From Minisyncoccota bacterium (GTDB lineage Bacteria > Patescibacteriota > Minisyncoccia > Phycocordibacterales > UBA6065), in contig DASZXC010000008.1 in NCBI GenBank assembly GCA_035546035.1, positions 123,951 to 187,950 on the forward strand: 64,000 nt of DNA, read 5' to 3'. Shown here one piece after another: positions 320 through 32,560 of the stretch. The notes beneath the pieces are model-generated. The model searched no databases. It was given only the letters and a program-made list of their open reading frames with translations, and was not told where the DNA came from. Every line of letters starts with the position of its first letter. The stretch's first letter is position 1. The position numbers were made by a program, and so were the translations under genes.

Positions 320-826
320 ATGAAAGCATTTGCCGCCCTCTTGTTCATACTGCTTGTCTGTGCGGGAGCCTATTATTTCTTCATGAATACGACGCTTTTC
401 GATACATCGTATCAGTCTCTCGACCTCGGTATACGCTTTAGCCACGCTTCAGATCTCCTCGTCCGCAATTCAGCTAACGGCGACGGCCTCGATATCAGTG
501 ATTCTTCCTTGGACAAAGAAGTCGTCCTTATACGCCGTTACAGGAACGATACGTTTCCCGGAGAGGACATCTCTTTCCGCATCGCGAGGGAATTCGGCTC
601 TAACATGTTCGACGAAAAGGACGCTACATTCAATCATATAGACGGCCTGGCATTTGAATGGCAGGGAGAAAAAGGTCGGGAAAGCGCGTTCGCATTCCAG
701 TCGGGGCTCTATGACATCGTCGTCTCTACCTTCGGCATGCCCGATCGAAACGTTGCCAGGTACGCGAACGGGGTCTTGGGCTCTCTCGAGATCGTAGACG
801 CTCGCCCTGATACAGGGGAGTTCTAG
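320..826 (+). CDS. Hypothetical exported/membrane-anchored protein (N-terminal hydrophobic segment)
   Basis: 168-aa ORF starting MKAFAALLFILLVCAGAYYFF (signal/anchor-like). No recognisable catalytic motif. First gene of a same-strand block of surface proteins. Confidence 0.5.
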   Translation: MKAFAALLFILLVCAGAYYFFMNTTLFDTSYQSLDLGIRFSHASDLLVRNSANGDGLDISDSSLDKEVVLIRRYRNDTFPGEDISFRIAREFGSNMFDEKDATFNHIDGLAFEWQGEKGRESAFAFQSGLYDIVVSTFGMPDRNVARYANGVLGSLEIVDARPDTGEF

Positions 827-863
827 GATTGACGGCTGCATACGCGTGATACAATTAATCCGT

Positions 864-2192
864 ATGAAAAAAATAAGAAGCACTTTTGCCCTTCGAGGGG
901 GGCTTATCATCGCGATACTGCTCATGCCGCAAGCCGCTGCTTTCGGCGCCACCGCGATCCCGAAGGGGACCGCCACGTTACCGGTGCCCGCTTCCTGCGA
1001 TCTCGTGCTGAACGGGGTCAAGGCGCGCATTGCGCCCATAGGCGAAGTTCCTGTCGCAGGCGGGGATCTGGACCTCTCTGTCACTCTTTCGAACGAGAAC
1101 GCCTATCCGGTAAGGGGCATGGATGTCGTCGCACGCATCTCGAAGCTCGCTCAGAAGGCCGGCGACGCATATGCGATGGCTACCGATACCGTCGCCCGCA
1201 TCGATCTGGCCAAAGGAGTCTCTCTTTCGACCGGCGAATCCCGAGAGATCGCCCTTGCGTGGCATATGCCGGCAAATCTCGTAGCAGGGCCGTATCGCGT
1301 CGATATCTTCGCTAATTCAGGCGATTCGGCCGTAGGGGGGAACGAATATCTCGGCGTGCCGGCAGGAAGCTATCCGGTCCGCATCGCAGGCGGAACAAAG
1401 GAAGTCTCGTTCCTGAAGCCTTCTTCGGTCGCCGTCAACGGAGCCAAGCCGTTCGCCAATCTTGTCGCCGACGTAAGATCGGCCTCGAATGCCGTGTCTG
1501 TCGTGGCCCAGAGCACTCATTCAAAGGCGGTATCGGCGACGATGCGCTGGAGGGTCTATAGCTCTTATTTCGCGGACGAGGCCGCTCTCGTAACGACGAA
1601 ATCGGAGGCGGTGACTATCCCTGCGGGTGGAACGCAGGCTGTATCCTATTCGTTCAGCGGAGCGGAGAAGGGAACCTATCTCGTCGTCGGCGAGCTCGTC
1701 GACCAATCGAAGGTCTCGCGCGTAGCCGTGCGATTGAACAGGACAGACAAGCCTGAACCGGTCGTTCGATCGCTCGTGCTCTCTGATTTTCCCCTCTCGT
1801 CGTCGGGCGCAACTCCCGTATTCGGCTGCATCGCCGACAGCTCTAACGGAAATCTCCCTGCGACCGCGGTAAAAGTGACTCTTACCGATGCGAAAGGCTC
1901 CGTCGTATATTCAGGCGCTTTCCACAAGACCCCATCGAATCCCTTCCTTCAGTTCATCGGCAATATACTTCCGAATATAAAAGCCGAGAATCCTCTTACG
2001 CTCGCCCTTACCGCGTATGCCGCGGACGGAAGCGTCATCGCCGCGAAATCGGTCGTCTATTCATGCGATGACGGCTCTTGCGACCAGAGCTCAGGAGAGG
2101 ATACGGCCACATACGCCGGCATCGTCGCGCTCGCTCTCCTCGCGATCGCCGCGCTTCTGGTCTGGGAAAAGAAGCACAGGAAACAACTCTAA
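864..2192 (+). CDS. Hypothetical cell-surface protein with N-terminal signal peptide and C-terminal TM anchor plus basic tail
   Basis: ORF 846..2192. Likely start is the internal Met at 864 (MKKIRSTFALRGGLIIAILLMPQAAAFGA). C-terminus YAGIVALALLAIAALLVWEKKHRKQL is a hydrophobic helix plus basic tail. No LPXTG motif seen. Confidence 0.55.
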   Translation: MKKIRSTFALRGGLIIAILLMPQAAAFGATAIPKGTATLPVPASCDLVLNGVKARIAPIGEVPVAGGDLDLSVTLSNENAYPVRGMDVVARISKLAQKAGDAYAMATDTVARIDLAKGVSLSTGESREIALAWHMPANLVAGPYRVDIFANSGDSAVGGNEYLGVPAGSYPVRIAGGTKEVSFLKPSSVAVNGAKPFANLVADVRSASNAVSVVAQSTHSKAVSATMRWRVYSSYFADEAALVTTKSEAVTIPAGGTQAVSYSFSGAEKGTYLVVGELVDQSKVSRVAVRLNRTDKPEPVVRSLVLSDFPLSSSGATPVFGCIADSSNGNLPATAVKVTLTDAKGSVVYSGAFHKTPSNPFLQFIGNILPNIKAENPLTLALTAYAADGSVIAAKSVVYSCDDGSCDQSSGEDTATYAGIVALALLAIAALLVWEKKHRKQL

Positions 2193-2193
2193 T

Positions 2194-3465
2194 ATGAAAC
2201 ATATGAAGAACCTGTTGAAATACGTTTCGGTCGCAGCAGCGGTGCTCGTCTTGGCGCTGATCGTCGTGCCGCATGCGGCTTCGGCTCAGTGGTACTACGG
2301 CTTTGGAGGCTATAGCTTTAACCCTAATACGGACGCGCTCTACATAGACGGCGTTCGCGTCGAGTTCTGGCCTCCTAATGAGGGCGGAGACAATGGAGGA
2401 GGAGGTGGTTCCGTCAGCATGGATACTCAGTGCCCTGACGGCTCTACGGTCCCGGAGGGACAGCAGTGCCCTCCGACCACAAAGGTATGTCAGGACGGCA
2501 GCGTCGTCGCCATAAACGATTCGTGTCCTCCGCTCACCAAACAATGCCCTGACGGCAGCACGGTTGATATCTCTGCCCAATGCCCTCCGACGACGAAACA
2601 ATGCCCTGACGGCAGCGTCGTGGCCATAAATGCCCAATGCGCGCCGAATACATGCCAGGACCCTTCGGCATCGAACTATGGCGGAAGCCTTCCGTGCGAC
2701 TATCCTCCGGCTCTCTGCACGGATCCGTCCGCTTCTAACTACGGCAATTCGCTTCCATGCCAATATGTGCCGATTCAGTATTGCAACGACCCAGCGGCTC
2801 TAAACTATGGCCAGCCGGGAGATTGTGACTATCCTCCTGCAGTGACTATATGCCAGGACCCTTCGGCATCGAACTATGGCGGAAGCCTTCCGTGCGACTA
2901 TCCGCCGATATGCTCTGATCCGTCCGCTTTGAACTATGGCCAGGAAGGCTCGTGCTCGTATCCTCCGCAGAATGTATGCGAGGATCCGAATGCCAACAAT
3001 TACGGCCAGGTCGGCGGATGCACATATGGCGGCGGGGGAAACAATGGCGACAATAATAACGCCCAAACAGGCTTCACCATCTCCGGTCCGAACAGCGTGA
3101 GCGCCACGTTCATCGGAACCCAGTCGGGCGAATCCCAGGTCGCTTCAGTCACGGTGAATCCGGTCGGTGGGTTCGACTCCGATGTCGCCGTTGGAGTGAG
3201 TTCGACCTCGTGCCCGAACGTTTCCGGCTATTCGTTCGACGGCGGTCCGTATACGTCGTCACCGGCGACGGTCATGCGACAGAATCCTAGCGGATGGTAT
3301 GCAGCTCCTTCAGGCAATCTCTATCTCGCGGTGAGGGTCGGTTTCTCGAGTCCTATCCCGTCTCCGTGTCAGGTGACGATCGCCGCTTCGGGCGGCGGCA
3401 AGAGCGCGGATTTCACCATGACCGTCCATCCTGATTCCAAGAATCCTCAATTCCAGGAATTCTAG
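2194..3465 (+). CDS. Secreted Cys-rich tandem-repeat protein with C-terminal -FQEF
   Basis: Start ATG 2194 (MKHMKNLLKYVSVAAAVLVLALIVVPHAASA = signal peptide), in frame inside track ORF 2017..3465. About 19-aa repeats CPDGSTV...QCPPTTK occur 4 times, and about 21-aa repeats C.DPSASNYG.SLPCDYPP occur about 6 times. Ends ...KNPQFQEF-stop. Confidence 0.7.
   Translation: MKHMKNLLKYVSVAAAVLVLALIVVPHAASAQWYYGFGGYSFNPNTDALYIDGVRVEFWPPNEGGDNGGGGGSVSMDTQCPDGSTVPEGQQCPPTTKVCQDGSVVAINDSCPPLTKQCPDGSTVDISAQCPPTTKQCPDGSVVAINAQCAPNTCQDPSASNYGGSLPCDYPPALCTDPSASNYGNSLPCQYVPIQYCNDPAALNYGQPGDCDYPPAVTICQDPSASNYGGSLPCDYPPICSDPSALNYGQEGSCSYPPQNVCEDPNANNYGQVGGCTYGGGGNNGDNNNAQTGFTISGPNSVSATFIGTQSGESQVASVTVNPVGGFDSDVAVGVSSTSCPNVSGYSFDGGPYTSSPATVMRQNPSGWYAAPSGNLYLAVRVGFSSPIPSPCQVTIAASGGGKSADFTMTVHPDSKNPQFQEF
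2652..2903 (+). repeat. Exact 54-nt direct repeat (copies 2652-2705 and 2850-2903) inside the Cys-rich repeat gene
   Basis: atgccaggacccttcggcatcgaactatggcggaagccttccgtgcgactatcc occurs identically twice, 198 nt apart. It encodes the CQDPSASNYGGSLPCDYP unit. Other repeat units are diverged. Confidence 0.8.
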
Positions 3466-3477
3466 GCGCTTCGCGGT

Positions 3478-4839
3478 ATGGACTTCGTCTTCATACTTCA
3501 CGCTATAGCCAACGCATTCGCGTCGGGAAGAAGCGTGATCAAAGTCGTGCTCCTTGCCGTCGCTGTTCTTATCGCTATCGGCGCGCGGCTTTACTATCGG
3601 AGAAGAGAGGGCGAAAAAGGCGCGGCTGCAGGGATACCGGAGAGGATATTTTTCTGGGCCTTGGGCGCATCATTCCTCCTGGGAGCCGTCGTCACATGGT
3701 ATGCGTATGTGACGTTCGGTGCCGGACCGGACCGGGTCATCGTCGCGATCGCCGAGCGCGACATCTCGACGACGCAGCCTTTTCATAGCCATGTGATGAA
3801 GGCGGCCTTTGGTGCGATCGCCGGCCTTGTTCCGGAGCATACGAGGCTCGCATGGGAGAATTCGGCTGATTTCGGCTATGCATACGCAAAGACATTGCCG
3901 CCGTGGATCGGCTTCGCGGGCTTCGCTGATTGCGCCGCGCTCGTCTCTCTGGCGATATGGCTCTTTGTCCGCTTCGCGGCGAGAGAGCGCAGGCTTTCCC
4001 TCGTCATCCTCTTTGCCGTCGCTCTGGTATCCGCGCTAAAGAACGTATTTGACGGAGGGGCGACGAACCACGAAGCGATTCCGGCGACCATCGTCTTGGG
4101 GCTCCTCGTTTTTGGGACGCGGCCCAAGAAGGCTCTGCTCGGGCTCGCGATCTTGCCTCTAGGCTTCGCGCTCGCAGGGGTCTGCTTTTCAGGCATGCCT
4201 TTGGGCGGAGCAGCGGAATATCTCCGTCATGCATTCGGATTAATGCTCATATATATATGCTGGTTCGCTCTTTCGGAGGATCGTGTTCCCAAGGTCCCCG
4301 CTATCATCGGGCTCATTGCCGGGGTGTTGTCTCTCGCGTCTCTCTTCGGTCTCGGCGCGCGCGACGCGCAATATGCCGCGACGCCGATATCGTATATCCA
4401 GACGTTCATCGGCACCTACGGCGACACCGAGCTCGGACAGTCGTACGAGAGGATCGGGTCTCTTTCTATACGCTCGTTCGCGACCACTTCTTCTCTTACG
4501 ATCGGCGGCTTGGCGTCCCTGATTGGAGAGGGTACTGCCTATAGCCCTATCTCTATCCGTACGAAGAGCTGCGAGTTCAAGAATGCGACGGCGCGTGTCT
4601 CGCTTGAAGCCGTCTCACGCTTCGACCTTGCCAAGCCGGCGGTTGTCCACAAGCTCGCGCGTATAGACAGCCTTATCTTTCGAGGAGAGAGCGATGGGTG
4701 GAAGCGATATGACGCCGATGTTTCCTTTTCAGAATGCGTCCCTCGTTCATTGACCGTCATCGCAGAGCTTTTTCATGAAGCGGGGGCGCCGTATCTTATC
4801 CTCCTGCCGCGATTAGGCGAGTCAGGCATGCCTTACTGA
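3478..4839 (+). CDS. Polytopic integral membrane protein (about 8-9 TM N-terminal region plus ~150-aa C-terminal soluble domain), function unknown
   Basis: 453-aa ORF with many hydrophobic helices, starting 13 nt after the preceding gene and ending 3 nt before the next. No family recognised by eye. A GT-C-like glycosyltransferase or exosortase-like role is speculative. Confidence 0.6.
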   Translation: MDFVFILHAIANAFASGRSVIKVVLLAVAVLIAIGARLYYRRREGEKGAAAGIPERIFFWALGASFLLGAVVTWYAYVTFGAGPDRVIVAIAERDISTTQPFHSHVMKAAFGAIAGLVPEHTRLAWENSADFGYAYAKTLPPWIGFAGFADCAALVSLAIWLFVRFAARERRLSLVILFAVALVSALKNVFDGGATNHEAIPATIVLGLLVFGTRPKKALLGLAILPLGFALAGVCFSGMPLGGAAEYLRHAFGLMLIYICWFALSEDRVPKVPAIIGLIAGVLSLASLFGLGARDAQYAATPISYIQTFIGTYGDTELGQSYERIGSLSIRSFATTSSLTIGGLASLIGEGTAYSPISIRTKSCEFKNATARVSLEAVSRFDLAKPAVVHKLARIDSLIFRGESDGWKRYDADVSFSECVPRSLTVIAELFHEAGAPYLILLPRLGESGMPY

Positions 4840-4842
4840 TCT

Positions 4843-5334
4843 ATGGATACTCTCTTCAAAGAGGCAGAGACTCTCATAATTCTTGCAGGAGCCGTGAATA
4901 TCGCTCTCAATATACTCGGCGCGCTTAAGCGCCGCTTCGGTCTGGAGAGATTCGACGCACCATTCGATTTCCGGATCGCCATCGGCGGGAGGAGGCTTTT
5001 GGGCGCGTCGACGACTTGGATCGGATTCATCCTCTGTGCTCTTTCGGGGGCGCTTATGTCCGTTTGGGGCATAGCATACGGCTATGTCATAGCATTCGGG
5101 GTCTTTTTTGGGCATGCTCTGGGCAGTTTCATAAAGCGAAGGATGGGCGTAGCTGACGGGGGTCCGCTTCCTCTGGTAGATCGTGCCAATTTCGTCGTCC
5201 TATCGGGAGCCGCGCTTCTCTTTATGGGCTCGATGCGCCCTGTCGCATATGTCGCGGCGGTCATCCTTGCCTATTTCATTCATCCTGTATTCTGTAAACT
5301 GGGTGTCATGCTCGGTATCAGGGTGGTACAATAG
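4843..5334 (+). CDS. Small membrane protein with divergent CdsA/CarS/dolichol-kinase-like (CTP-transferase superfamily) motif
   Basis: 163 aa, about 5 TM. Segment GHALGSFIKRRMGVADGGPLPLVDRANFVV resembles the S-x-F-K-R-x4-(K)D-...-DR signature of the CdsA/CarS family but lacks the HGG triplet. Size is similar to archaeal CDP-archaeol synthase. Assignment is tentative. Confidence 0.45.
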   Translation: MDTLFKEAETLIILAGAVNIALNILGALKRRFGLERFDAPFDFRIAIGGRRLLGASTTWIGFILCALSGALMSVWGIAYGYVIAFGVFFGHALGSFIKRRMGVADGGPLPLVDRANFVVLSGAALLFMGSMRPVAYVAAVILAYFIHPVFCKLGVMLGIRVVQ

Positions 5335-5342
5335 GGCCAGTC

Positions 5343-6566
5343 ATGAAAAATAGATTCGCGGCAATATTTTTCGCTCTCGCGGCGGTCATCTTCGCCTTTC
5401 CTTCCGTCTCTTCGGCCGGTTCCGCTCATAATATGTCAGGCTTCGCCTGGTCGTCGACCATAGGTTGGATCAGTTTCAACTGTACCAATGACAGCAGCTG
5501 TGCGACCGCTGACTATGGCGTGAATAAAGACGCTGACGGCACTCTCAACGGCTATGCGTGGTCTTCGAACGTCGGCTGGATACAGTTCAGCGGCCTTTCG
5601 AGCTTTCCGACGGGCGGCGGCACTTCGGCGGTAAATGCCCAAATGTCCGGATCGAGCCTTATCGGCTGGGTCAAAGCCGTCGCGGCTGACGGCAATGGCT
5701 GGGACGGATGGATAGCGCTCTCCGGCACGGGCTACGGCGTGACTCTTTCAGGCACGGCATTCACCGGCTATGCATGGGGAAGCGATACGGTCGGCTGGAT
5801 AAGCTGGAATTGCCTCTCTGACAGTTCCTGCGGAGCGGCGAGCTATGCCGTCAGCCTCTCCGGCGACGCGTCTCTCGACATAACGAGCGGCGGCTCGACC
5901 ATCGTCGGGTCGAGTTCGGTCCCCTACGGCACTATCCCGACATTCCAGTGGACCCTCACGACTCTTCCGGTCGGGACGACATGCGCGGTCTCCAAAACCT
6001 CTTCCGGAGGCACGGCATTCACGACTATAAGCGGCATAACGTCTTCGGGTTCCGCATCGGGAGACCCTCTGACCGAAGGCCCGTACACGTTCCAGATACA
6101 ATGCATGAACGGCGGTTCGACGCTCGTTACCAAGACGGCGAGTTTCACCGTCGCCTCCCAGCCGCCCGGCTTCGATCTAGGCCCGTCCGAAACCGCTTTC
6201 ATCCAATTCCTCAACGCAGGAGAGGCGACATCCCAGCAGAAGAGCATATTCGTGAGCGCATTCGGCGGTTTTTCGAATCCGGTCACCATATCGATCACTG
6301 GATTCCCGGCCGCCCCGGCTTCGACGACCTTCTCGTATTCGCTCGGCGGCAGCGCTTTTTCCGCCAATCCGCCGAGCGTCGTCATCAGTAGCCCGTATTC
6401 ATCGGGTACGACGCTCAAGATCCGCGTGACGAGGGTCTCCGGCGCCCCGGCATTCACCGGAAATTTCACGGTGACGCTCACAGGCACGGCCGCGGGAGCG
6501 TCGGCTGATACCAAAGATATCGTCCTCACGCCGACGACCTTCGTCCCGGCATTCCAAGAATTCTAA
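5343..6566 (+). CDS. Secreted Trp-rich repeat protein with C-terminal -FQEF
   Basis: Signal peptide MKNRFAAIFFALAAVIFAFPSVSSA. Repeated motif G(Y/F)AW(S/G)S..GWI(S/Q)(F/W)(N/S)C occurs 3-4 times, followed by a Thr/Ser/Gly-rich region. Ends ...FVPAFQEF-stop, the same last four residues as the 2194..3465 gene. Confidence 0.7.
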   Translation: MKNRFAAIFFALAAVIFAFPSVSSAGSAHNMSGFAWSSTIGWISFNCTNDSSCATADYGVNKDADGTLNGYAWSSNVGWIQFSGLSSFPTGGGTSAVNAQMSGSSLIGWVKAVAADGNGWDGWIALSGTGYGVTLSGTAFTGYAWGSDTVGWISWNCLSDSSCGAASYAVSLSGDASLDITSGGSTIVGSSSVPYGTIPTFQWTLTTLPVGTTCAVSKTSSGGTAFTTISGITSSGSASGDPLTEGPYTFQIQCMNGGSTLVTKTASFTVASQPPGFDLGPSETAFIQFLNAGEATSQQKSIFVSAFGGFSNPVTISITGFPAAPASTTFSYSLGGSAFSANPPSVVISSPYSSGTTLKIRVTRVSGAPAFTGNFTVTLTGTAAGASADTKDIVLTPTTFVPAFQEF

Positions 6567-6837: not shown

Positions 6838-8394
6838 ATGAGCCGAAAGATCTTTAAGACGTTCGTCATAGCTCTCGCCGCAGTCCTGCCTCTTTCCGCC
6901 TCTGCGCAGTGGTCAGGGCCGGGAGCGACCCCGCCTTCAGGCAATGCTGCTCCGCCTCTCAATACGTCCTCGACCGCGCAATCGAAAGCAGGCGGACTCC
7001 TCTTGAATACCGGCAACGCGACGAACGGCCTCATCGTTCAATATGGAAACGTCGGCGTGGGCGCTACGTCTCCGGGAGCGAAGCTTCATGTGCTCGGCGG
7101 CGGCGCCATTCTGGGCACCACGGGGTCGGCCGCTAGTTCAAGGACCCTCACCATCCTCGATAACGCTGACGGCCAGATAAACTTCGGCTCGTATTCCGGC
7201 CAATGGAGGTCGTCTATCCAGATCCAGTCGAACGACGCGGCGCGCCTCCTCTTTATCGCTCCTCCTGAATCGGACTACGGATACGGCATCCTCCGCGCGG
7301 CGAACGGCGGACTTAAAATAGACGTCGGCGGCACGACGGGGGACAGCGGCAGCAATGCGATCTCGATCGAATCGAACGCCAAGGTCGGCATCGGCATGAC
7401 GCCGTCGGTCAAGCTCGACGTGAACGGCGAGATACAGACGAACGACTGGCTCTACAACTCGACGTCAGCCAAAGGCCTCTACAATACCAGCACGGGCAAG
7501 CATTTCTATTCGGAATCCGCGAGCTATTGGGCGCTGAACTCTACCAACGGCCTTGTCCTTCGGAACGGCTACGCGGGAACGGTTACGGGCTACCTCTATT
7601 GGGACGGAACGGCCGGTTCGAACAACTTCGGCCTCCTTTCGCCGAACGGCTCCTGGAAAGTGCGAACGGATAATTCCACGACCCAGCTCTACGGCAACGT
7701 GTACATGCCCTTCTTCTATGACACTGACAACTCGGCCTATTATGTCGACCCTCATAGCGTGTCGCGATTCAATGATATCCGTCCGAACATCATCTATGAC
7801 GGCAACGACACGAACTATTATCTCGATATGAACGGCTCGTCGAAGATCGGGTATACGCTCTTCCCGGGCGGTGCGAACATGCAGTCGACGCTCTATATAA
7901 CGGGCGGCGCTCTGTGGGCGCAGGGAGGAGTGACGACATACCTCGACGGATATGTCTGGGTCCGAGGCCCGGCATACGGAGGGCAGGGCGATGTCCAGAT
8001 CGACGGCGACCTCTCGCTCGGCGCTCATGTAGCGAGCGGAGGAGGAGGAACGATACATCTCTATGGCGACGGCTACTATTGGGGCTCGTGGAACAACATG
8101 TCGGACCAGAGGCTCAAGAAGAATATCGTGCCTATCGCCGATCCTATCGAGAAGATCGAAAAATTGAACGGCGTCGCATTCGATTGGAAGGATTCGGGCA
8201 AACATTCCGTCGGCGTCATCGCGCAGGACGTCGAGAAAGTATTTCCGGAGCTCGTATCCACCGATGACAAGACGGGATACAAGGCGGTCCAATATCAGAA
8301 CCTCGTCGCTCCTCTCATAGAAGCCGTAAAGGCTCAGCAGAAGGAGATCGAGGCGCTCAAGGCGGAAGTCGAAGCCCTCAAGAAAGACAGATAA
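6838..8394 (+). CDS. Secreted fibre-like protein with C-terminal intramolecular chaperone/auto-processing domain (Peptidase S74, endosialidase-chaperone type)
   Basis: Signal peptide MSRKIFKTFVIALAAVLPLSASA, followed by a long Gly/Thr/Asn/Ser-rich region. C-terminus SDQRLKKNIVPIADPIEKIEKLNGVAFDWKDSGKHSVGVIAQDVEKVFPELVSTDDKTGYKAVQYQNLVAPLIEAVKAQQKEIEALKAEVEALKK matches the S-D-x-R-L-K ... IAQE(V).PE.V ... LI.A.K coiled-coil pattern of phage tail-spike chaperone domains. Confidence 0.7.
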   Translation: MSRKIFKTFVIALAAVLPLSASAQWSGPGATPPSGNAAPPLNTSSTAQSKAGGLLLNTGNATNGLIVQYGNVGVGATSPGAKLHVLGGGAILGTTGSAASSRTLTILDNADGQINFGSYSGQWRSSIQIQSNDAARLLFIAPPESDYGYGILRAANGGLKIDVGGTTGDSGSNAISIESNAKVGIGMTPSVKLDVNGEIQTNDWLYNSTSAKGLYNTSTGKHFYSESASYWALNSTNGLVLRNGYAGTVTGYLYWDGTAGSNNFGLLSPNGSWKVRTDNSTTQLYGNVYMPFFYDTDNSAYYVDPHSVSRFNDIRPNIIYDGNDTNYYLDMNGSSKIGYTLFPGGANMQSTLYITGGALWAQGGVTTYLDGYVWVRGPAYGGQGDVQIDGDLSLGAHVASGGGGTIHLYGDGYYWGSWNNMSDQRLKKNIVPIADPIEKIEKLNGVAFDWKDSGKHSVGVIAQDVEKVFPELVSTDDKTGYKAVQYQNLVAPLIEAVKAQQKEIEALKAEVEALKKDR

Positions 8395-9212: not shown

Positions 9213-9500
9213 ATGAACCCACAAGAAAATTCAAGCAACCGCGCATACTGGATGATCCTCGCTGGCGTCGCTCTCCTCGCTGCTTTGGGCCTCGTCGCGT
9301 TCTATCTCTATCTCCAGAAAGAGGCCGCTCAGACGCCCGTTGACCAGACTCCCGTCACGACGGTTCCTGTGAATAGCGGCTCGCAGCAGAATGCGGCGTC
9401 ATCGGGCTCTCAAAGCGGGGCCACGACTGCAGAGCAGGATCTTTCGGGGGACGTGCTTTCAGGCACTGAATACAATCTCCGCGCTGGTTTGAGCCAATAA
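9213..9500 (+). CDS. Small membrane protein, hypothetical
   Basis: 95 aa. TM helix YWMILAGVALLAALGLVAFYLYL. Rest is Ser/Gln-rich. Confidence 0.4.
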   Translation: MNPQENSSNRAYWMILAGVALLAALGLVAFYLYLQKEAAQTPVDQTPVTTVPVNSGSQQNAASSGSQSGATTAEQDLSGDVLSGTEYNLRAGLSQ

Positions 9501-9731: not shown

Positions 9732-9735
9732 CCGT

Positions 9736-9766
9736 TTAGCCGTCTGCGCCCGTCTTGCGGTATAAT
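9736..9766 (+). promoter_or_regulatory. Putative sigma70-type promoter of the type IV pilus operon
   Basis: TATAAT at 9761-9766 with TTAGCC about 19 nt upstream. Lies 18 nt before the pilB ATG at 9785. Confidence 0.4.
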
Positions 9767-9784
9767 AGATACACCGCTCTCTCT

Positions 9785-11536
9785 ATGTACATCGAAGAAT
9801 CCCAGCTCAAGCAATTCATCGCTGATTCGGGCCTCGTCTCGAAGAAAGACATGACCGATGCTCAGACAGAAGCCAAAGCCAAGAAGACGGGTCTCGGAGA
9901 GATCCTCGTCAACCACGGAAAGATATCCGAAGACGATCTCCGCAAGATGCAGGCATACATCCTTGGCATCCCGTTCGTGGATCTCAAGGGCCAGAAAATA
10001 GATTTCGCCATCCTCTCTCTCATTCCCGAGCCGATCGCGCGAAACCATAATATCGTCGCGTTCAAGAAAGACCCTTCGGCTCTCGAGGTTGCCATGCTCG
10101 ACACCGACGACCTTTCGGCCATCGATTTCATAAAGAAGAAGACCGGCCTCAAGATCCTCTCGCGCCTCACCGATACCGAATCCATAAAATCGGTCCTTCT
10201 CCAATATCAGAAGAGCCTTAAGGCCGAATTCGGCGATCTCATAAAAAACGAGACCGCGACTCTGAAAGCGCTCTCCGAGGAGATCGGTTCGAAAGGGAAG
10301 AGCGGCGACGACCTGAAGAAGATGGCCGAGGACCTGCCGGTCATCCGCATCGTGGATACGCTCTTAAAGCATGCCATCATCCAGGGCGCATCCGATATAC
10401 ATATCGAGCCTCTGGAAAAAGAGCTTTTGGTCCGCTACCGCATAGACGGCCTCCTCCACGACGCTATGGTCCTGCCGAAAGAAGCCGAGATGTCCATCAC
10501 GGCGCGCATCAAGGTGCTCTCGAACCTCAAGCTCGACGAGAAGCGCCTTCCGCAGGACGGACGATTCAAAGTAGAGATGAACGGCGAGAAAGTCTCGCTC
10601 CGCGTCTCTATCATGCCGACGTTCTATGGCGAAAAGACGGTGATGCGCCTGCTCCGTGAATCGGTTTCCGGATTCACGCTCGAGCATCTCGGTTTCCACG
10701 GCCCTGCGCTTGAACGGATCCACGATGCGACGCGATTGGCGACGGGCATGATCCTGGCTACAGGCCCTACGGGTTCGGGCAAATCGACGACGCTCTATAC
10801 GGTCCTCGATATCCTGAACCAGCCCGACGTGAATATCGCGACGGTCGAAGATCCTGTCGAATATCAGATGCCGCGCGTGAACCAGACCCAGGTCCGCCCC
10901 GACATCGGATTCACGTTCGCGTCGGGCCTCCGATCCCTTGTCCGCCAGGATCCGGACATCATCATGGTAGGCGAGATCCGCGACAACGAGACGGCGTCCC
11001 TTGCCGTGAACGCGGCTCTTACGGGTCACCTCGTGCTTTCGACCCTTCATACCAATTCCGCCGCGGGCTCCATGCCGCGCCTCATGGATATGAAGATCGA
11101 GCCGTTCCTGCTCGCTTCAACGCTTGCCGTCGTCATCGGCCAGCGCCTCGTGCGGCGCCTCGCGGACAATAAAGACCTCAAGCCTTTGACTAAGGCCGAG
11201 CTCGGCGCATTGGGCAAGGTCGTGGATCTTGACCGCATGCTCGCGCTTCTCCGCGACGAGAAGATCATCGGTCCGAAGGACGATTGGGCTAAGGTCATGT
11301 TCGGCTCCCCTCGCGCCGAAGGCGACAATGACGGATACAAGGGCCGCGTCGGCATCCATGAAGTGCTCAAGATGACGCCGACGATCAGGGAGCTGATCAT
11401 GAAAGGAGCGACGTCCGCCGAGATCGAGGCGCAGGCCAAGAAAGAGGGAATGATCACCATGCTCGAAGACGGCATATTCTCCGCCGCTCAGGGCCTGACG
11501 ACGATCGAAGAGGTTCTCCGCGTGGTTTCCGAATAG
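9785..11536 (+). CDS. pilB: Type IV pilus assembly ATPase PilB (GspE family)
   Basis: Walker A GPTGSGKST, ..VEDPVEYQ.., and the tetracysteine-less GspE core are recognisable. Start taken at internal Met (MYIEES) of track ORF 9755..11536, just downstream of the promoter. Confidence 0.9.
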   Translation: MYIEESQLKQFIADSGLVSKKDMTDAQTEAKAKKTGLGEILVNHGKISEDDLRKMQAYILGIPFVDLKGQKIDFAILSLIPEPIARNHNIVAFKKDPSALEVAMLDTDDLSAIDFIKKKTGLKILSRLTDTESIKSVLLQYQKSLKAEFGDLIKNETATLKALSEEIGSKGKSGDDLKKMAEDLPVIRIVDTLLKHAIIQGASDIHIEPLEKELLVRYRIDGLLHDAMVLPKEAEMSITARIKVLSNLKLDEKRLPQDGRFKVEMNGEKVSLRVSIMPTFYGEKTVMRLLRESVSGFTLEHLGFHGPALERIHDATRLATGMILATGPTGSGKSTTLYTVLDILNQPDVNIATVEDPVEYQMPRVNQTQVRPDIGFTFASGLRSLVRQDPDIIMVGEIRDNETASLAVNAALTGHLVLSTLHTNSAAGSMPRLMDMKIEPFLLASTLAVVIGQRLVRRLADNKDLKPLTKAELGALGKVVDLDRMLALLRDEKIIGPKDDWAKVMFGSPRAEGDNDGYKGRVGIHEVLKMTPTIRELIMKGATSAEIEAQAKKEGMITMLEDGIFSAAQGLTTIEEVLRVVSE

Positions 11537-11548
11537 ATCTCGAACAAA

Positions 11549-12763
11549 ATGCTTTTCTCATACACAGCGGTTCGAAAAGACGGCACCCATTACGAGGATA
11601 CGCTCGAGGCTGCCGACAAATTCGCTCTTTATAAAGAGCTCCATGCCCGCGGCGAGACCGTGCTCTCCGTTTCCGACAAGAGATCGAAGCCGAACGCGCT
11701 CAAGCGCTTCGCATCGATTAGCCTCGGCGGCATAAAGGCCGAAGACAGGATCCTTTTTGCCAAGAATCTCTCCGCTATGATCAAGGCGGGCCTTCCTCTG
11801 TCGCGCTCGCTCGCGGTCCTCGATCGCCAGATGAATAAGAAGCAGTGGAAGGGGATCATTGCGTCTCTCGAAGACTCTCTCTCCAAAGGGTCGAGCTTTT
11901 CCCAGGCTCTGGCAGCGTTCCCGAAGTATTTCCCGCCGTTCCTCACGTCCATGGTCGCCGTGGGCGAAGAATCCGGATCGCTCTCCCAGTCCCTTTTGAT
12001 CGTCGCGGACCAGCTGGAGAAATCGCATAACCTCCAGAAAAAAGTCCGCGGCGCGATGATATATCCAGCTATCATCCTTACCGTCATGGCGGCGATCGGC
12101 GTCATGATGTTCGTATTCGTCGTGCCGAAATTGACCGCGACGTTCGCTTCATTCAATACCGAGCTTCCTCTCGCTACCCGCTCCGTCATCGCGGCGAGCG
12201 ATTTCTTCAGCCATTACTGGCTCATCGTCCTTGTCGCGCTTATCCTCGTCGTCCTTGGCGTATATGCATTGGCGAAGACCGCCGGAGGCAAGAGGGCGAT
12301 CCACAAGCTCATCCTCAAGCTACCTATCACCGGCAAGATCGCGGTCAATATAAATACCGCCCGCACGGCCCGAACCCTTTCGTCCATGCTCGCGTCGGGT
12401 GTCGATGTCGTCGCGGCGCTCCGCATCACGGGCGACGTCGTCCAGAACATCCATTATCGCGCGATGCTCCAGAAAGCCGCCGATGATATACAAAAAGGCT
12501 CCACGCTCCAGTCGCTTTTCGTCAGCCGCGAAGACATATATCCGGCATTCATAGCCGAGATGATCGGGGTGGGAGAGGAGACAGGCACGCTCTCGAAGAC
12601 TCTCCTCGAAGTCGCGTCGTTCTATGAAGCCGAAGTTGAGGAAAAGACCAAGGACATGTCCACTATCATCGAGCCTGTGCTCATGGTGATCATCGGCATC
12701 GGCGTCGGTTTCTTCGCGCTCGCCATGATATCGCCGATCTACTCGCTCTCGAGCGCTATATAG
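11549..12763 (+). CDS. pilC: Type IV pilus inner-membrane platform protein PilC (GspF family)
   Basis: 404 aa with two GspF repeats (..LSAMIKAGLPLSRSLAVL.. / ..LSSMLASGVDVVAALRI..) and three TM segments. Immediately follows pilB. Confidence 0.9.
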   Translation: MLFSYTAVRKDGTHYEDTLEAADKFALYKELHARGETVLSVSDKRSKPNALKRFASISLGGIKAEDRILFAKNLSAMIKAGLPLSRSLAVLDRQMNKKQWKGIIASLEDSLSKGSSFSQALAAFPKYFPPFLTSMVAVGEESGSLSQSLLIVADQLEKSHNLQKKVRGAMIYPAIILTVMAAIGVMMFVFVVPKLTATFASFNTELPLATRSVIAASDFFSHYWLIVLVALILVVLGVYALAKTAGGKRAIHKLILKLPITGKIAVNINTARTARTLSSMLASGVDVVAALRITGDVVQNIHYRAMLQKAADDIQKGSTLQSLFVSREDIYPAFIAEMIGVGEETGTLSKTLLEVASFYEAEVEEKTKDMSTIIEPVLMVIIGIGVGFFALAMISPIYSLSSAI

Positions 12764-13231
12764 ATGAAAACTCCTGTTCCCACAACGCGCGGATTCAATA
12801 TCGTCGAGCTCCTCCTCGTCATCGCCATTCTTAGCCTGGTCGTGGGCGTTTCCGTCCAGTCCTATGTGAACTTCTCGCGCGCGCAAAGCCTCGCCGCCTC
12901 GGCTTCGGCTCTCGCCGGCGCGCTCCGCGACGCCCGCGCGCGCACCCTCGCCTCTGTTTCCGCCTCCCAGTACGGCGTGAAGACCGACACGAACATATTC
13001 ACGGTCTTCAAGGGCTCTTCGTTCTCTTCGTCCACCCCGGGGAACGAGACGTTCACGTTCCCTTATCCCGTGGCCGCTTCCTCGTCTTCGTCCATGCGCA
13101 CGGTCACGTTCACCCGCGTGACGGGGAACGCGTCGGCGTCTGGTACAATTGACCTGTACCTTCCTGGCCTCCCCGGTGTCCAGAAAAAGACGGTCTCCAT
13201 ACAGAATACGGGGCTCGTAAGCATCCAATAG
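12764..13231 (+). CDS. Prepilin-type (pseudo)pilin
   Basis: N-terminus ...TRG/FNIVELLLVIAILSLVVGV is a class III signal peptide with Glu at +5. Start is adjacent to the pilC stop. Confidence 0.75.
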   Translation: MKTPVPTTRGFNIVELLLVIAILSLVVGVSVQSYVNFSRAQSLAASASALAGALRDARARTLASVSASQYGVKTDTNIFTVFKGSSFSSSTPGNETFTFPYPVAASSSSSMRTVTFTRVTGNASASGTIDLYLPGLPGVQKKTVSIQNTGLVSIQ

Positions 13232-13693
13232 ATGAATCCCAAAGGATCAGTGATTCTCGAAGTCGTGGTCGCCGCGTCCATCATGGCCGTCGTCGCTCTC
13301 GCATTCCTCGGCAGCTTCGCTGTCCTCACGCGCGTCCATGAAAGGAATATGTTGTTCATCAAGGGCGACCTCCTCGCCGAAGAGGGCCTCGAGGCGATGC
13401 GCTTCATCAAGGCCGCGGGCTGGAACAACCTTTCCGGCATTCCTTCCGGTACGGCGCGATATCTGGCCGTCGGCGTCTCGGCCTGGAGCGTCACGACGAC
13501 TCCTGAAAGGATCGACGGCGATTTCTACCGCACCATAAGGGTCTATCAGGTATCAAGGAATTCGTCCGACGACATCGTCGCGTCGGGCGGGACCGTCGAC
13601 GCGAATACGCTCCTTACCGAATCGAGCGTCTCGTGGTCGTATCGCGGCGCCACGACGACCGTAACATATAAGGCTTATGTCACGAACATCTAA
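13232..13693 (+). CDS. Minor pilin-like protein (PilV-like N-terminus)
   Basis: MNPKG/SVILEVVVAASIMAVVALAFLG: prepilin-like leader with Glu+5. Start abuts the previous stop. Confidence 0.6.
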   Translation: MNPKGSVILEVVVAASIMAVVALAFLGSFAVLTRVHERNMLFIKGDLLAEEGLEAMRFIKAAGWNNLSGIPSGTARYLAVGVSAWSVTTTPERIDGDFYRTIRVYQVSRNSSDDIVASGGTVDANTLLTESSVSWSYRGATTTVTYKAYVTNI

Positions 13694-14195
13694 AGGATAT
13701 ACTCTCGTCGAGATGCTCGTCTATATCGCGCTCATCGCGCTCCTCTTCAGCGCGCTCGCGGCGGCGGTCTCACAGATATCGAAATCAGAGCGCCGCGCCC
13801 GCGCATTCCTCGACATAAACTCTGCGGCCATATCGGCATTCAGTCGCTTCTCGCGCGACATCCGCCGCGCTACGTCCATCGATATCGTGAACAGTACGCT
13901 CTCCGCGAGCTCAGGCAAGCTCGCTCTCATCATGAAGAATGCCGACGGCACGTCTTCGACGACGAAATTCTATCTGTCCGCCGACGGCATGGTCAAAGTC
14001 GAGCAGGACGGCGTATACGCCGGAAGCGTGACATCCGACAACATGCAGGTTTCGAACCTGACGTTCTGGAAATTCTCGCAGGCTTCGACCACGGCAGTGA
14101 GGATAGAGATGACGCTCGCTCCCGATGCTTCCACAACCGTGCCGGCGCTTAACTTCTACGGCACGTACGTCCTGCGAGGCTCATATCTTGAATAA
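13677..14195 (+). CDS. Prepilin-type (pseudo)pilin
   Basis: MSRTSKG/YTLVEMLVYIALIALLFSALAAAV, a canonical prepilin cleavage/methylation motif. Overlaps the previous gene by 17 nt. Confidence 0.75.
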   Translation: MSRTSKGYTLVEMLVYIALIALLFSALAAAVSQISKSERRARAFLDINSAAISAFSRFSRDIRRATSIDIVNSTLSASSGKLALIMKNADGTSSTTKFYLSADGMVKVEQDGVYAGSVTSDNMQVSNLTFWKFSQASTTAVRIEMTLAPDASTTVPALNFYGTYVLRGSYLE

Positions 14196-31844: not shown

Positions 31845-31910
31845 GCAGAAACCTGCAATATAAAACCACCCCGCCGAGGCCTGGGGTGGTTTTATATTGC
31901 AGGTTTCTGC
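31845..31910. terminator. 66-nt perfect hairpin (28-bp stem) between convergent rpsJ and the pilin gene; bidirectional terminator candidate
   Basis: gcagaaacctgcaatataaaaccacccc-gccgaggcct-ggggtggttttatattgcaggtttctgc. Stem abuts the rpsJ stop (31841-43) and overlaps the pilin stop (31910-12). Confidence 0.7.
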
Positions 31911-32356
31911 TAAGGACAGACCGACGACGTGGCAGGACCCGACGAACCCTTCGATGCGCCCATAGAGTCTACGCACCAATAAGTCGAGGTCGAGACGAGC
32001 TGCGCCGATACCGCCCATGCCGTCTGGGTTCCGGCAGGGGATGCGTAGCATGCCACTGCAGGGGACGTAGATGCCAATGCCGCTATCTGGTCGCTCATCT
32101 TCGGGTCGGCGACGAATATCGAGCCAGAGGTCGAGCATGACGAGACCGTGCCTGCCGCCGATCCGTAATTGCCCGCGCCGTCGAAATAGAGCTCCGCTTG
32201 AGGGCGAAGGGAGACGAGCTGCGCCTTTACGGCCGCGTCGCTGCCCTTGTTTCGCGCCGAATTCAACGATGCGAGCACTACCGACGACAATATGCCGATG
32301 ATAGCGATCACAACGAGGAGTTCGATGAGGGTAAAGCCTTTCTTCAAATTCTTCAT
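31910..32356 (-). CDS. pilA: Type IV major pilin (PilA-like prepilin)
   Basis: Start at internal Met (complement 32354-32356): MKNLKKG/FTLIELLVVIAIIGILSSVVLASL is a class III signal with Glu+5. 148 aa Ser/Ala-rich with C-terminal Cys pair (..WCVD...SVCP). Confidence 0.8.
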   Translation of the reverse strand: MKNLKKGFTLIELLVVIAIIGILSSVVLASLNSARNKGSDAAVKAQLVSLRPQAELYFDGAGNYGSAAGTVSSCSTSGSIFVADPKMSDQIAALASTSPAVACYASPAGTQTAWAVSAQLVSTSTYWCVDSMGASKGSSGPATSSVCP

Positions 32357-32560
32357 ATCGATCAAAAAACTAATAATGCTGTGTTTTTCAGCTCGAGGAT
32401 AAGTATAGCAGGCGTTTTCGGCCCTCATTTGCTTTATTTTCCCCAGTGGGGTAGTATGACCCCCACAAGAGAAGCACGGCTTCTTTTTTGATTTCAGTTT
32501 TATTTATTTGGGATATTAAGAGAGCCTACGGAGCCCCCAGCTCCGCGCTCGCGCAAACCA

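What the first reader, a model, noticed from the sequence alone, without database searches (positions are those of the whole stretch)
2194..6566. Candidate undescribed sorting/modification module: two secreted repeat proteins ending in identical -FQEF-COOH flank a polytopic membrane protein and a CdsA/CarS-like membrane protein
Seen in sequence: four tightly packed same-strand genes with gaps of 12, 3 and 8 nt. Gene 1 (2194-3465) is a signal-peptide-bearing Cys-rich tandem-repeat protein. Gene 4 (5343-6566) is a signal-peptide-bearing Trp-rich repeat protein. They are unrelated in repeats, yet both terminate with the same tetrapeptide Phe-Gln-Glu-Phe directly before the stop (...NPQFQEF* and ...VPAFQEF*). 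Between them lie a 453-aa polytopic membrane protein with a C-terminal soluble domain, and a 163-aa 5-TM protein. The 5-TM protein's segment SFIKRRMGVADGGPLPLVDR resembles the CTP-transferase (CdsA / CDP-archaeol synthase / dolichol kinase) signature but lacks the canonical K-D and HGG residues. Inference: a shared extreme C-terminal motif on two otherwise unrelated exported proteins, bracketing membrane proteins in one operon, fits a substrate plus processing-enzyme arrangement. Known analogies are exosortase/PEP-CTERM, archaeosortase/PGF-CTERM (which adds archaeal lipid), and rhombosortase/GlyGly-CTERM. Here the motif is not followed by a TM helix and basic tail, so it does not fit any described sorting signal. 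The lipid-head-group-transferase-like partner would suggest C-terminal lipid or polyprenyl-sugar modification, or GT-C-type glycosylation fed by a polyprenol kinase. All of this is hypothesis.
Basis: partly seen in the sequence, partly recalled or inferred. Interest (0 to 1): 0.72.

Follow-up and report, generated by a model that had tools for sequence, protein, structure and literature searches.

The report
Pilin-linked membrane enzyme pair in Patescibacteria
The shared -FQEF ending is real but is the tip of a shared 125-residue domain, and the more notable result is that the two membrane proteins between these genes form an undescribed, widely conserved gene pair (a new-fold membrane protein plus a CarS-like protein) that in ultra-small Patescibacteria almost always sits next to type IV pilin genes.

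Summary
Four tightly packed + strand genes lie at the stated coordinates, and FQEF occurs only twice in the six-frame translation, both times directly before a stop codon.

Two points change the picture.

1. The two secreted proteins are not otherwise unrelated. They share a homologous, roughly 125-aa C-terminal domain. In ten proteins from seven loci this domain always ends P-x-F-x-E-[F/I]-COOH.

2. The 453-aa and 163-aa proteins form a far more widely conserved pair.
- The 453-aa family has 93 cluster representatives, no Pfam or NCBIfam match and no PDB fold match, despite a confident model (pLDDT 92).
- Its invariant His, Lys and Asp residues and a two-Cys C-terminal domain are predicted to face outward.
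- The CarS-like gene is its immediate neighbour in 18 of 18 checkable loci.
- A type IV pilin gene lies directly upstream in 10 of 22 loci, and pilus assembly genes lie close by in four more.
- FQEF-type proteins flank the pair only in the window's own clade.

My best reading is a pilin and surface-protein accessory (modification) cassette in which g1 and g4 have become clients. That mechanism is inferred, not shown. An exosortase-like FQEF sorting system is not supported by motif anatomy, family models or fold.

The parts
846..2192 (+). g0: secreted protein (448 aa) with an N-terminal signal sequence and a C-terminal TM anchor plus basic tail (KKHRKQL). It is the first gene of the conserved cluster and ends 1 nt before g1.
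   Evidence: Homologues lie upstream of g1 in L003, L006, L008 and L016.
2194..3465 (+). g1: secreted Cys-rich repeat protein (423 aa). It occupies the position directly upstream of g2 that a pilin gene holds in other lineages.
   Evidence: TRF finds a 57-nt repeat at 2467-2647. Orthologues in L003, L006, L008 and L016 all end P-x-F-x-E-I.
3067..3465 (+). Shared C-terminal domain of g1 (about 130 aa), ending ...NPQFQEF (FQEF codons 3451-3462).
   Evidence: BLASTP against g4, E 7e-6. Alignments.
3478..4839 (+). g2: 453-aa protein with 8 TM helices and an unmatched fold. Invariant H103, K108, D131 and D192-G-G, and near-invariant H105 (97%), are predicted on the outer face. Residues 305-453 form an extracytoplasmic alpha/beta domain with a conserved Cys365/Cys420 pair.
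   Evidence: 93 family representatives. Invariant columns. AF2 model pLDDT 91.9, pTM 0.90. No Pfam, NCBIfam or PDB match.
4843..5334 (+). g3: 163-aa membrane protein of the CarS-like (CTP-transferase superfamily) family, and the obligate neighbour of g2.
   Evidence: Pfam PF01864, E 6e-13. NCBIfam CarS equivalog 62.9 bits against a cut-off of 148. PDB 5GUF, E 8e-7. Adjacent to g2 in 18 of 18 checkable loci.
5343..6566 (+). g4: secreted Trp-rich GWISF-repeat protein (407 aa) with a middle Ig-like region.
   Evidence: DUF5979, E 2.5e-5. Orthologues in L002, L003, L006 and L007 end FNPQF[QN]E[FI].
6165..6566 (+). Shared C-terminal domain of g4 (about 133 aa), ending ...VPAFQEF (FQEF codons 6552-6563).
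   Evidence: No Pfam or PDB family match.
6838..8394 (+). g6: secreted fibre-like protein with a C-terminal Peptidase_S74 intramolecular-chaperone domain. It is conserved downstream of g4.
   Evidence: Pfam PF13884, E 1e-17. Homologues in L002, L003, L006 and L007.
9755..12763 (+). Type IV pilus motor and platform genes: pilB (9755-11536) and pilC (11549-12763).
   Evidence: Pfam T2SSE, E 1e-119, and T2SSF, E 2e-54.
12764..14195 (+). Minor-pilin-like genes (12764-13231, 13232-13693, 13677-14195).
   Evidence: N_methyl motif. Sequences.
31910..32428 (-). Orthologue of the major pilin that in other lineages lies directly upstream of g2. Here it sits 27 kb away.
   Evidence: A profile of g2-adjacent pilins hits it at E 2e-20. 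Sequence.

Best explanation
What it is. The four genes belong to a conserved surface-protein operon (g0-g1-g2-g3-g4-...-g6) of one Paceibacterota (Patescibacteria/CPR) lineage.

The core pair. The functional core is g2-g3. g2 is an 8-TM protein with an unmatched fold. Its invariant His, Lys and Asp residues and its disulfide-type C-terminal domain face the outside of the cell. g3 is a small CarS-like protein of the CTP-transferase superfamily, whose active site in known relatives faces the cytoplasm.

Where the pair sits. Across Patescibacteria the pair is normally attached to a type IV major-pilin gene (pilin-g2-g3) or to pilMNO/pilB. It is therefore best read as a pilin and surface-protein accessory cassette.

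Proposed mechanism (inferred, not shown). On the inner face, g3 uses CTP to activate or re-phosphorylate a membrane lipid: either a polyprenol or diacylglycerol acting as a kinase, or a lipid phosphate converted to a CDP-lipid. On the outer face, g2 transfers a head group (a glycan or a phospho-form) from that lipid-linked donor onto the exported client protein.

The FQEF proteins. In the window's clade the pilin has moved away, and two Sec-secreted proteins, g1 and g4, flank the pair. Both carry the same roughly 125-aa C-terminal domain ending P-x-F-x-E-[F/I]-COOH, and they are the likely clients or partners here.
For: Shown:
- Operon conservation and the motif P-x-F-x-E-[F/I]-COOH in 10 of 10 homologues from 7 loci.
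- The tail is one of the two most conserved stretches of the shared domain. Cross-paralogue identity is 0.64 for the last 8 columns against 0.28 for the rest.
- g2 family: 93 representatives matching over their full length. H103, K108, D131, G133, D192, G193, G194, P357, Y411 and C420 are invariant in 45 diverse members.
- Topology across the family. Loops 1-2, 3-4, 5-6 and 7-8 are K/R-rich, which places them inside. The conserved polar residues lie in the acidic loops. Every member has exactly 2 Cys in the C-terminal domain.
- The model is confident (pLDDT 91.9).
- g3 is the immediate neighbour of g2 in 18 of 18 checkable loci. This holds in same-strand, reversed (L022) and divergent (L012-15) arrangements, often with overlapping or abutting reading frames.
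- An N_methyl pilin gene lies 11-64 nt upstream of g2 in 9 of the 10 pilin-adjacent loci; in L023 the gap is only 2 nt.
- pilM/O/B genes lie just downstream in L004, L016 and L018, and 5 kb downstream in the window.
- L005 has two g2 paralogues, each behind its own pilin, sharing a single g3. This is what a client-specific factor plus a general helper would look like.
- L023 carries a pilin-g2-g3-pilin cassette inserted inside the ribosomal-protein operon, so the cassette behaves as a self-contained unit.
- L020 has Bac_transf and a GT4 glycosyltransferase directly upstream of the cassette.

Precedent: pilin-accessory gene cassettes in which a polytopic enzyme gene follows pilA (TfpO, TfpW) are established in Pseudomonas aeruginosa (PMC11841053).
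Against: - No chemistry is shown. No known transferase family or fold matches g2.
- Sugar-pathway genes sit next to the cassette in only one locus (L020).
- g3 falls well below the CarS equivalog cut-off.
- In g3 the residues aligned with ApCarS D100 and D125 are H and N in the window's clade, so g3 may not be a standard CTP transferase.
- g1 and g4 have ordinary Sec signals and are not pilins. Their link to g2-g3 rests only on conserved synteny within one clade.
- The pilins next to g2 do not carry the FxE[F/I] tail.
- Only 64 kb of the genome could be read, so genome-wide enrichment of the tail was not tested.
Confidence: 0.45

Rival explanations
1. A dedicated 'FQEF-CTERM' sorting system. 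g2 would be a sortase-like enzyme that recognises the extreme C-terminal FxE[F/I] tail of g1 and g4. It would process that tail or attach it to a lipid made by g3, in analogy with exosortase/PEP-CTERM or archaeosortase/PGF-CTERM.
For: - The tail is invariant in position and strongly conserved in 10 of 10 proteins across two paralogous families.
- These proteins flank g2-g3 in 7 of 7 loci of the clade.
- g2's conserved residues face outward.
- Many g2-adjacent pilins also end in a hydrophobic or aromatic residue, for example -TSF, -SAF, -GSF and -NSF. This is a weak hint only.
Against: - There is no TM helix or basic tail after the motif.
- No exosortase, archaeosortase or rhombosortase model matches any of 45 g2 family members.
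- There is no invariant Cys or Ser in the membrane part of g2.
- There is no fold match.
- g2-g3 occurs in at least 15 loci with no FxE[F/I] protein nearby.
- The motif is the end of a shared folded domain, which by itself explains its recurrence.
Confidence: 0.12
2. g2-g3 is a non-catalytic pilus-assembly accessory or chaperone, TfpY-like in role. g1 and g4 are simply neighbouring surface proteins kept by synteny. FQEF is only the last strand or tail of an Ig-like anchoring domain.
For: - The strong pilin and pilus linkage.
- Non-enzymatic pilin accessory proteins are known (PMC11841053).
- The shared C-terminal domain gives weak Ig-like hints.
- Synteny is confined to one clade.
Against: - Invariant His, Lys, Asp and DGG residues conserved down to about 18% identity suggest catalysis or metal binding rather than a scaffold.
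- An obligate pairing with an enzyme-family protein (CarS-like) is hard to explain for a chaperone.
Confidence: 0.25
3. g2-g3 is a membrane-lipid remodelling pair. It would make a CDP-lipid and exchange or transfer head groups on lipids scavenged from a host. It would have no protein substrate, and would be co-located with pilus and surface genes only because envelope genes cluster together.
For: - g3 belongs to a lipid-activating enzyme superfamily.
- CPR bacteria are thought to depend on scavenged lipids. This rests on general knowledge and was not tested here.
- No protein-modifying family matches g2.
Against: - The 2-64 nt spacing behind pilin genes in 10 loci.
- Paralogue-specific pairing of each g2 with its own pilin in L005.
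- The pilin-g2-g3-pilin cassette inserted in a ribosomal operon.
All three point to a pilin-specific role.
Confidence: 0.15

Closest known systems
Pilin-accessory gene cassettes of Pseudomonas aeruginosa (pilA-tfpO and pilA-tfpW pilin glycosyltransferases; TfpX/Y/Z assembly accessories)
   Same: [quoted passage not shown] Accessory and pilin pair specifically (two pilin-g2 pairs in L005). The size, about 450 aa, is similar to TfpO (size from my own knowledge). The active side faces outward.
   Different: g2 has no Wzy_C/O-antigen-ligase or GT-C sequence or fold similarity. It always comes with a CarS-like partner, which has no counterpart in the Tfp cassettes. In the window itself the gene upstream of g2 is not a pilin but a Sec-secreted repeat protein.
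CDP-archaeol synthase CarS (Pfam PF01864; PDB 5GUF) and the wider CTP-transferase superfamily (CdsA; dolichol and phytol kinases)
   Same: g3 passes the Pfam family threshold. It aligns with ApCarS over residues 40-159, including the SF(I/V)KRR motif and the following conserved Asp. It has the same size and about the same number of TM helices (5).
   Different: It scores 62.9 bits against the 148-bit CarS equivalog cut-off. The positions aligned with ApCarS D100 and D125 are H and N here. The host is a bacterium with no sign of archaeal ether-lipid genes in the window. Its gene context is pilins, not lipid synthesis.
Exosortase/PEP-CTERM, archaeosortase/PGF-CTERM and rhombosortase/GlyGly-CTERM sorting systems
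   Same: A conserved C-terminal signature on several secreted proteins encoded next to a polytopic membrane protein.
   Different: No TM helix or basic tail follows the motif. No family-model hit. No catalytic Cys/Arg/His or Ser/His arrangement in the membrane part. The membrane protein occurs widely without the motif.
C-terminal sorting or anchoring domains shared by otherwise different secreted proteins (for example the T9SS CTD, and the WxL or SLH domains of monoderms)
   Same: A folded, beta-rich domain of about 125 aa at the extreme C-terminus is shared by two proteins with different N-terminal parts. It has a conserved end.
   Different: No sequence match to any such family. The organism is a CPR bacterium. 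No cognate secretion or anchoring machinery was identified.
Neisseria PptA / EptA-type phospho-form transferases paired with lipid recycling (recalled from general knowledge, not tested)
   Same: The concept is the same: an outer-face transferase decorates pilin using a membrane-lipid donor, while an inner-face lipid kinase or activator recycles the by-product.
   Different: g2 has no sulfatase-type domain and no sequence or fold similarity to these enzymes. This is purely an analogy.

Membership tests
Exosortase / archaeosortase / rhombosortase sorting systems | Substrates carry a tripartite C-terminal signal: motif, then a TM helix, then a basic tail. | tested here: not met
   g1 and g4 and all eight homologues stop directly after E-[F/I]. 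No hydrophobic segment follows.
Exosortase / archaeosortase / rhombosortase sorting systems | The polytopic enzyme matches the family models (NCBIfam/TIGRFAM exosortase, archaeosortase, rhombosortase; Pfam). | tested here: not met
   45 g2 family members were scanned. No such family appeared at E <= 0.1 in NCBIfam or at E <= 0.01 in Pfam.
Exosortase / archaeosortase / rhombosortase sorting systems | Motif-bearing proteins and the enzyme co-occur across genomes. | tested here: inconclusive
   They are adjacent in 7 of 7 loci of the close clade, and in none of the 15 more distant g2 loci where the flanks could be read. Whole genomes could not be examined.
CDP-archaeol synthase (CarS) / Pfam CarS-like PF01864 | Score above the Pfam gathering threshold. 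| tested here: met
   49.5 bits against a cut-off of 22, E 6.3e-13. The CarS-like annotation is also on record for the g2 neighbours in 10 other loci.
CDP-archaeol synthase (CarS) / Pfam CarS-like PF01864 | Score above the NCBIfam CarS equivalog cut-off (NF003114), meaning the same function. | tested here: not met
   62.9 bits against a cut-off of 148.
CDP-archaeol synthase (CarS) / Pfam CarS-like PF01864 | Conserved catalytic and metal-binding residues of the CTP-transferase core. | tested here: inconclusive
   SFIKRR and the Asp of 'LVD' are invariant in 11 g3 homologues. The ApCarS D100 equivalent is H, T or S. The D125 equivalent is N in the window's clade and D elsewhere. I could not read the primary structure paper to confirm which residues are essential.
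Pilin glycosyltransferase cassettes (TfpO: Wzy_C family; TfpW: GT-C) | The gene lies directly downstream of a major pilin gene. | tested here: met
   True for g2 homologues in 10 loci, with gaps of 2-64 nt. It is not true in the window itself, where g1 holds that position and the pilin orthologue lies at 31910-32428.
Pilin glycosyltransferase cassettes (TfpO: Wzy_C family; TfpW: GT-C) | Sequence or fold membership in Wzy_C/O-antigen ligase or GT-C. | tested here: not met
Pilin glycosyltransferase cassettes (TfpO: Wzy_C family; TfpW: GT-C) | A covalent glycan on the pilin that depends on the accessory gene. | not testable with these tools
   This needs mass spectrometry and genetics.
Prepilin peptidase (Peptidase_A24, PilD) | A24 family match, with two catalytic Asp residues on the cytoplasmic side. 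| tested here: not met
   No A24 hit in 45 members. The invariant Asp residues lie in loops predicted to be outside by the positive-inside rule.

The most novel reading that the evidence does not exclude
g2-g3 is a previously undescribed, Patescibacteria-wide two-component protein-modification system. An outward-facing enzyme of a new fold decorates type IV pilins using a lipid-linked donor that a repurposed CarS-like CTP-transferase makes or recycles. In some lineages it also decorates other secreted proteins, recognised through a C-terminal P-x-F-x-E-[F/I]-COOH domain. It would be the first dedicated pilin-modification machinery known in CPR bacteria and a new enzyme class.
Probability: 0.35. 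Interest if true: 0.78.

Novelty: new variant of a known kind. Interest (0 to 1): 0.6.

Why it matters
Patescibacteria (CPR) are ultra-small episymbionts whose type IV pili drive host attachment, motility and probably DNA uptake. How their pilins and surface proteins are matured is essentially unknown: a recent Saccharibacteria pilus study could only predict glycosylation sites (PMC11623550).

A conserved gene pair sits directly behind the major pilin gene in many lineages. Neither Pfam nor NCBIfam covers its larger member, and that member's confident model matches no solved fold. This gives a concrete, testable candidate for the missing machinery.

It would also assign a first non-archaeal role to the CarS-like family and add a new outward-facing membrane-enzyme fold. 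For annotation, both the g2 family and the P-x-F-x-E-[F/I] C-terminal domain deserve family models of their own.

Tried and rejected
1. Word-indexed homologue searches failed. g2 found only itself, a profile of the shared C-terminal domain found nothing, and the 45-sequence g2 profile returned only 2 proteins. The exhaustive HMMER search was what revealed the g2 family.
2. The search for related loci with g3 alone found nothing in the species-representative genomes.
3. Structure prediction of g4 with only the two window sequences gave pLDDT 42.7, which is unusable. The fold of the FQEF domain, and whether the tail is a strand or a free tail, therefore remain unknown.
4. The AFDB Foldseek library was unavailable, so annotated structural neighbours of g2 outside the PDB were not examined.
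5. I considered a prepilin peptidase (PilD) role for g2 and rejected it. There is no A24 match, and the conserved Asp residues are predicted outside.
7. I considered a repeated DNA element as the source of the FQEF codons and rejected it. The DNA similarity does not extend beyond the coding tail.
8. ORF 320-826 also ends in -GEF, but it has no homologues in the related loci. I treat this as coincidence.
9. A weak Pfam 'Pilin' hit in the g4 C-terminal domain (E 0.063) and a PDB 6xi1 hit (E 5e-4, no stretch passing) are not significant.
10. The primary CarS structure paper could not be read, so the catalytic residues were not verified.

Full report
**1. Observation**

The window carries four + strand genes at the stated coordinates:
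- g1, 2194-3465
- g2, 3478-4839
- g3, 4843-5334
- g4, 5343-6566

The gaps between them are 12, 3 and 8 nt. g1 ends ...NPQFQEF* and g4 ends ...VPAFQEF*. FQEF occurs only twice in the six-frame translation of the whole 64 kb, both times immediately before a stop. The corresponding DNA pattern gives 2 matches against 0.19 expected.

Both proteins have Sec-type signal sequences. g1 has 22 Cys and a 57-nt tandem repeat. g4 is Trp-rich with GWISF-type repeats.

Two things were missed.
- g1 and g4 share a homologous C-terminal domain of about 125 aa (BLASTP 26% identity, E 7e-6), so the identical tetrapeptide is the end of a shared domain.
- The cluster is longer than four genes. g0 (846-2192; signal peptide plus C-terminal TM anchor) ends 1 nt before g1. 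Same-strand genes run on to 9500, and the first strong terminator-like hairpin lies at 9705-9729, just before pilB.

The organism is a Candidatus Paceibacterota MAG. The window also holds pilB, pilC, minor pilins, comEC, the ribosomal-protein operon and secY.

**2. The FQEF domain**

Related loci from genome and metagenome collections contain orthologues of g1 (L003, L006, L008, L016) and g4 (L002, L003, L006, L007). All ten proteins, counting the two in the window, stop exactly after P-x-F-x-E-[F/I]. The tails seen are FNPQFNEF, FNPNFKEI, FNPQFQEI, FNPSFKEI, FNPNFQEI and KDPRFSEI.

A regex for F-x-E-[hydrophobic]-stop over the ORFs of at least 50 aa in loci L002-L015 found only these proteins. 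Between the two paralogous families, the last eight columns are 64% identical against 28% for the rest of the domain. That ties them with the GGF..V segment as the most conserved stretch.

The domain matches no Pfam family and no PDB sequence; there are only weak Ig-like hints. Its structure could not be predicted with the sequences I was allowed to submit (pLDDT 42.7).

**3. The 453-aa protein (g2)**

The word-indexed search found only g2 itself. An exhaustive HMMER search of 1.84 billion representatives then found 93 full-length relatives of 400-520 aa.
- None of 45 diverse members matches any Pfam or NCBIfam family.
- No PDB sequence matches.
- With that alignment AlphaFold2 gives a confident model (pLDDT 91.9, pTM 0.90). 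It has eight TM helices, an extramembrane beta-hairpin and short-helix region (residues 81-141), and a C-terminal alpha/beta domain (305-453).

So g2 is not recognisably GT-C, O-antigen ligase, rhomboid, exosortase-like or a transporter of known fold.

Invariant residues are H103, K108, D131, G133, D192-G193-G194, P357, Y411 and C420. H105, C365, P422-R423 and an N-terminal F-A-x-G-R-S motif are nearly invariant.

Family-wide charge counts place loops 1-2, 3-4, 5-6 and 7-8 (K/R-rich) in the cytoplasm, and all conserved polar residues on the outer face. Every member has exactly two Cys in the C-terminal domain. The inference is an outward-facing catalytic or metal-binding site plus a disulfide-stabilised extracytoplasmic domain.

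**4. The 163-aa protein (g3)**

g3 passes the Pfam CarS-like threshold. It aligns with Aeropyrum pernix CarS (5GUF) over residues 40-159 at E 8e-7. It is far below the NCBIfam CarS equivalog cut-off, 62.9 bits against 148.

SFIKRR and the following Asp are invariant in 11 homologues. The positions aligned with ApCarS D100 and D125 are H and N in this clade.

That is true, but ApCarS lacks them too. g3 is therefore a member of the CarS-like family and probably not a CarS orthologue. What is known of CarS and CdsA mechanism was taken from PMC9385802 and PMC7018664.

**5. Context across 22 distinct loci**

- The CarS-like gene is the immediate neighbour of g2 in 18 of 18 loci where the contig allows a check. 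It appears downstream on the same strand (most loci, often overlapping or abutting), upstream on the same strand (L022), or divergent (L012-L015).
- A type IV pilin gene (Pfam N_methyl, GFTLIEL) lies immediately upstream of g2 in ten loci: L005 (both g2 copies), L009, the P0009 locus, L017, L019, L020, L021, L023 and L024. The gap is 11-64 nt in nine of them and 2 nt in L023.
- These pilins are orthologous major-pilin-like proteins.
- pilM/N/O/B/T/C genes follow g2-g3 in L004, L016 and L018. In the window pilB starts 5 kb downstream.
- L005 has two g2 paralogues, each behind its own pilin, converging on a single g3.
- In L023 a pilin-g2-g3-pilin cassette is inserted in the ribosomal-protein operon between L5 and S14.
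- In L020 a Bac_transf phosphoglycosyltransferase and a GT4 enzyme lie just upstream.
- FxE[F/I] proteins flank g2-g3 only in the seven loci whose g2 is at least 35% identical to the window's g2.
- In the window the major-pilin orthologue sits 27 kb away at 31910-32428 on the - strand, and g1 occupies the pilin's usual position.

**6. Interpretation**

The primary, ancient association of g2-g3 is with type IV pilins, not with FQEF proteins. The arrangement is a major pilin gene followed by a gene for a polytopic, outward-facing protein with client-specific paralogues. This parallels the pilin-accessory cassettes of Pseudomonas aeruginosa, where TfpO and TfpW glycosylate their cognate pilins and TfpY-like proteins aid assembly (PMC11841053).

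The invariant His, Lys and Asp constellation, and the obligate partnership with a lipid-activating-enzyme homologue, favour a catalytic role that uses a lipid-linked donor. In that model g3 acts on the inner face as a CTP-dependent kinase or cytidylyltransferase, and g2 transfers a head group onto the exported client on the outer face. All of this is inference. Neither the chemistry (glycan or phospho-form) nor the site of modification is known.

In the window's clade, g1 and g4 are the likely clients or partners, for three reasons:
- They replace the pilin in the operon.
- Their common domain has an unusually constrained, strictly terminal tail.
- Many g2-adjacent pilins also end in a hydrophobic or aromatic residue, such as -TSF, -SAF, -GSF and -NSF. 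This last point is only a weak hint.

**7. Rivals**

- An exosortase-like FQEF sorting system fails the tests on motif anatomy, family models, fold and wide co-occurrence. It is not excluded for this clade.
- A non-catalytic assembly accessory is possible, but it sits poorly with the invariant polar residues and the enzyme-family partner.
- A pure lipid-remodelling pair sits poorly with the tight, paralogue-specific linkage to pilins.

**8. Verdict**

The strongest result is the g2-g3 pair: conserved, pilin-linked, uncovered by any family model, and with a fold that matches nothing solved. I found no description of it in the full-text searches I ran. The P-x-F-x-E-[F/I] C-terminal domain is a second, smaller novelty.

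I rate it as a new variant of a known kind (pilin and surface-protein accessory cassettes), with an interest of 0.6.

Limits:
- No experimental evidence.
- No structure for the FQEF domain.
- The AFDB library was unavailable.
- Only 64 kb of the genome could be examined.

Noticed in passing
window 846-2192 (+): g0 has a signal peptide, a large extracellular part and a C-terminal TM helix followed by KKHRKQL. It is conserved directly upstream of g1 in L003, L006, L008 and L016. Only sub-threshold hits to the VPEID-CTERM and GVDTG sorting domains were seen (E 0.1-0.2). It is probably a plain membrane anchor, and possibly the membrane tether for g1.
   Followed up: partly
window 6838-8394 (+): g6 is a secreted 518-aa protein with a C-terminal Peptidase_S74 intramolecular-chaperone domain (as in phage tail spikes and endosialidases) followed by a coiled coil. 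It is conserved after g4 in L002, L003, L006 and L007, in versions up to 787 aa.
   Followed up: partly
window 9500-9755: The 255-nt gap before pilB holds two promoter-like sites (9508-9547) and a strong hairpin (9705-9729; 11-bp stem, 7 G-C pairs, T-rich tail) only 25 nt before the pilB start. It could be an operon boundary or an attenuator-like leader.
   Followed up: no
window 31910-32428 (-); L023 5462-8328: The major-pilin orthologue of this genome sits alone between the EF-Tu gene and the ribosomal-protein operon. In L023 a whole pilin-g2-g3-pilin cassette is inserted inside the ribosomal-protein operon, between the L5 and S14 genes.
   Followed up: partly
L005 1227-7611: Two g2 paralogues, each directly behind its own pilin gene, converge on a single CarS-like gene. 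A 553-aa polytopic protein with no Pfam match lies upstream of the second pilin.
   Followed up: partly
L020 3410-8607: Bac_transf (an initiating phosphoglycosyltransferase) and a GT4 glycosyltransferase lie immediately upstream of pilin-g2-CarS-like. This is the only locus where sugar-pathway genes adjoin the cassette.
   Followed up: no
window 320-826 (+): This ORF (168 aa, N-terminal hydrophobic segment) ends ...DTGEF, superficially like the -QEF tail. It has no homologue in the related loci, so this is probably coincidence.
   Followed up: yes
window 3451-3465 and 6552-6566: Both FQEF-stop stretches contain an EcoRI site (GAATTC) as a consequence of the Glu-Phe codons. No DNA similarity extends beyond the coding tail.
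   Followed up: yes
window 21166-24153 (+): ComEC appears to be split. The Competence/DUF4131 part (21166-22638) and the metallo-beta-lactamase part (23260-24153) are separate ORFs, with a 194-aa ORF of no known family between them.
   Followed up: no
window 49831-51674 (+): A DsbD-type membrane protein and a thioredoxin/AhpC-like protein are present. These are extracytoplasmic thiol-redox genes, consistent with disulfide-rich exported proteins such as g1 and the g2 C-terminal domain.
   Followed up: no
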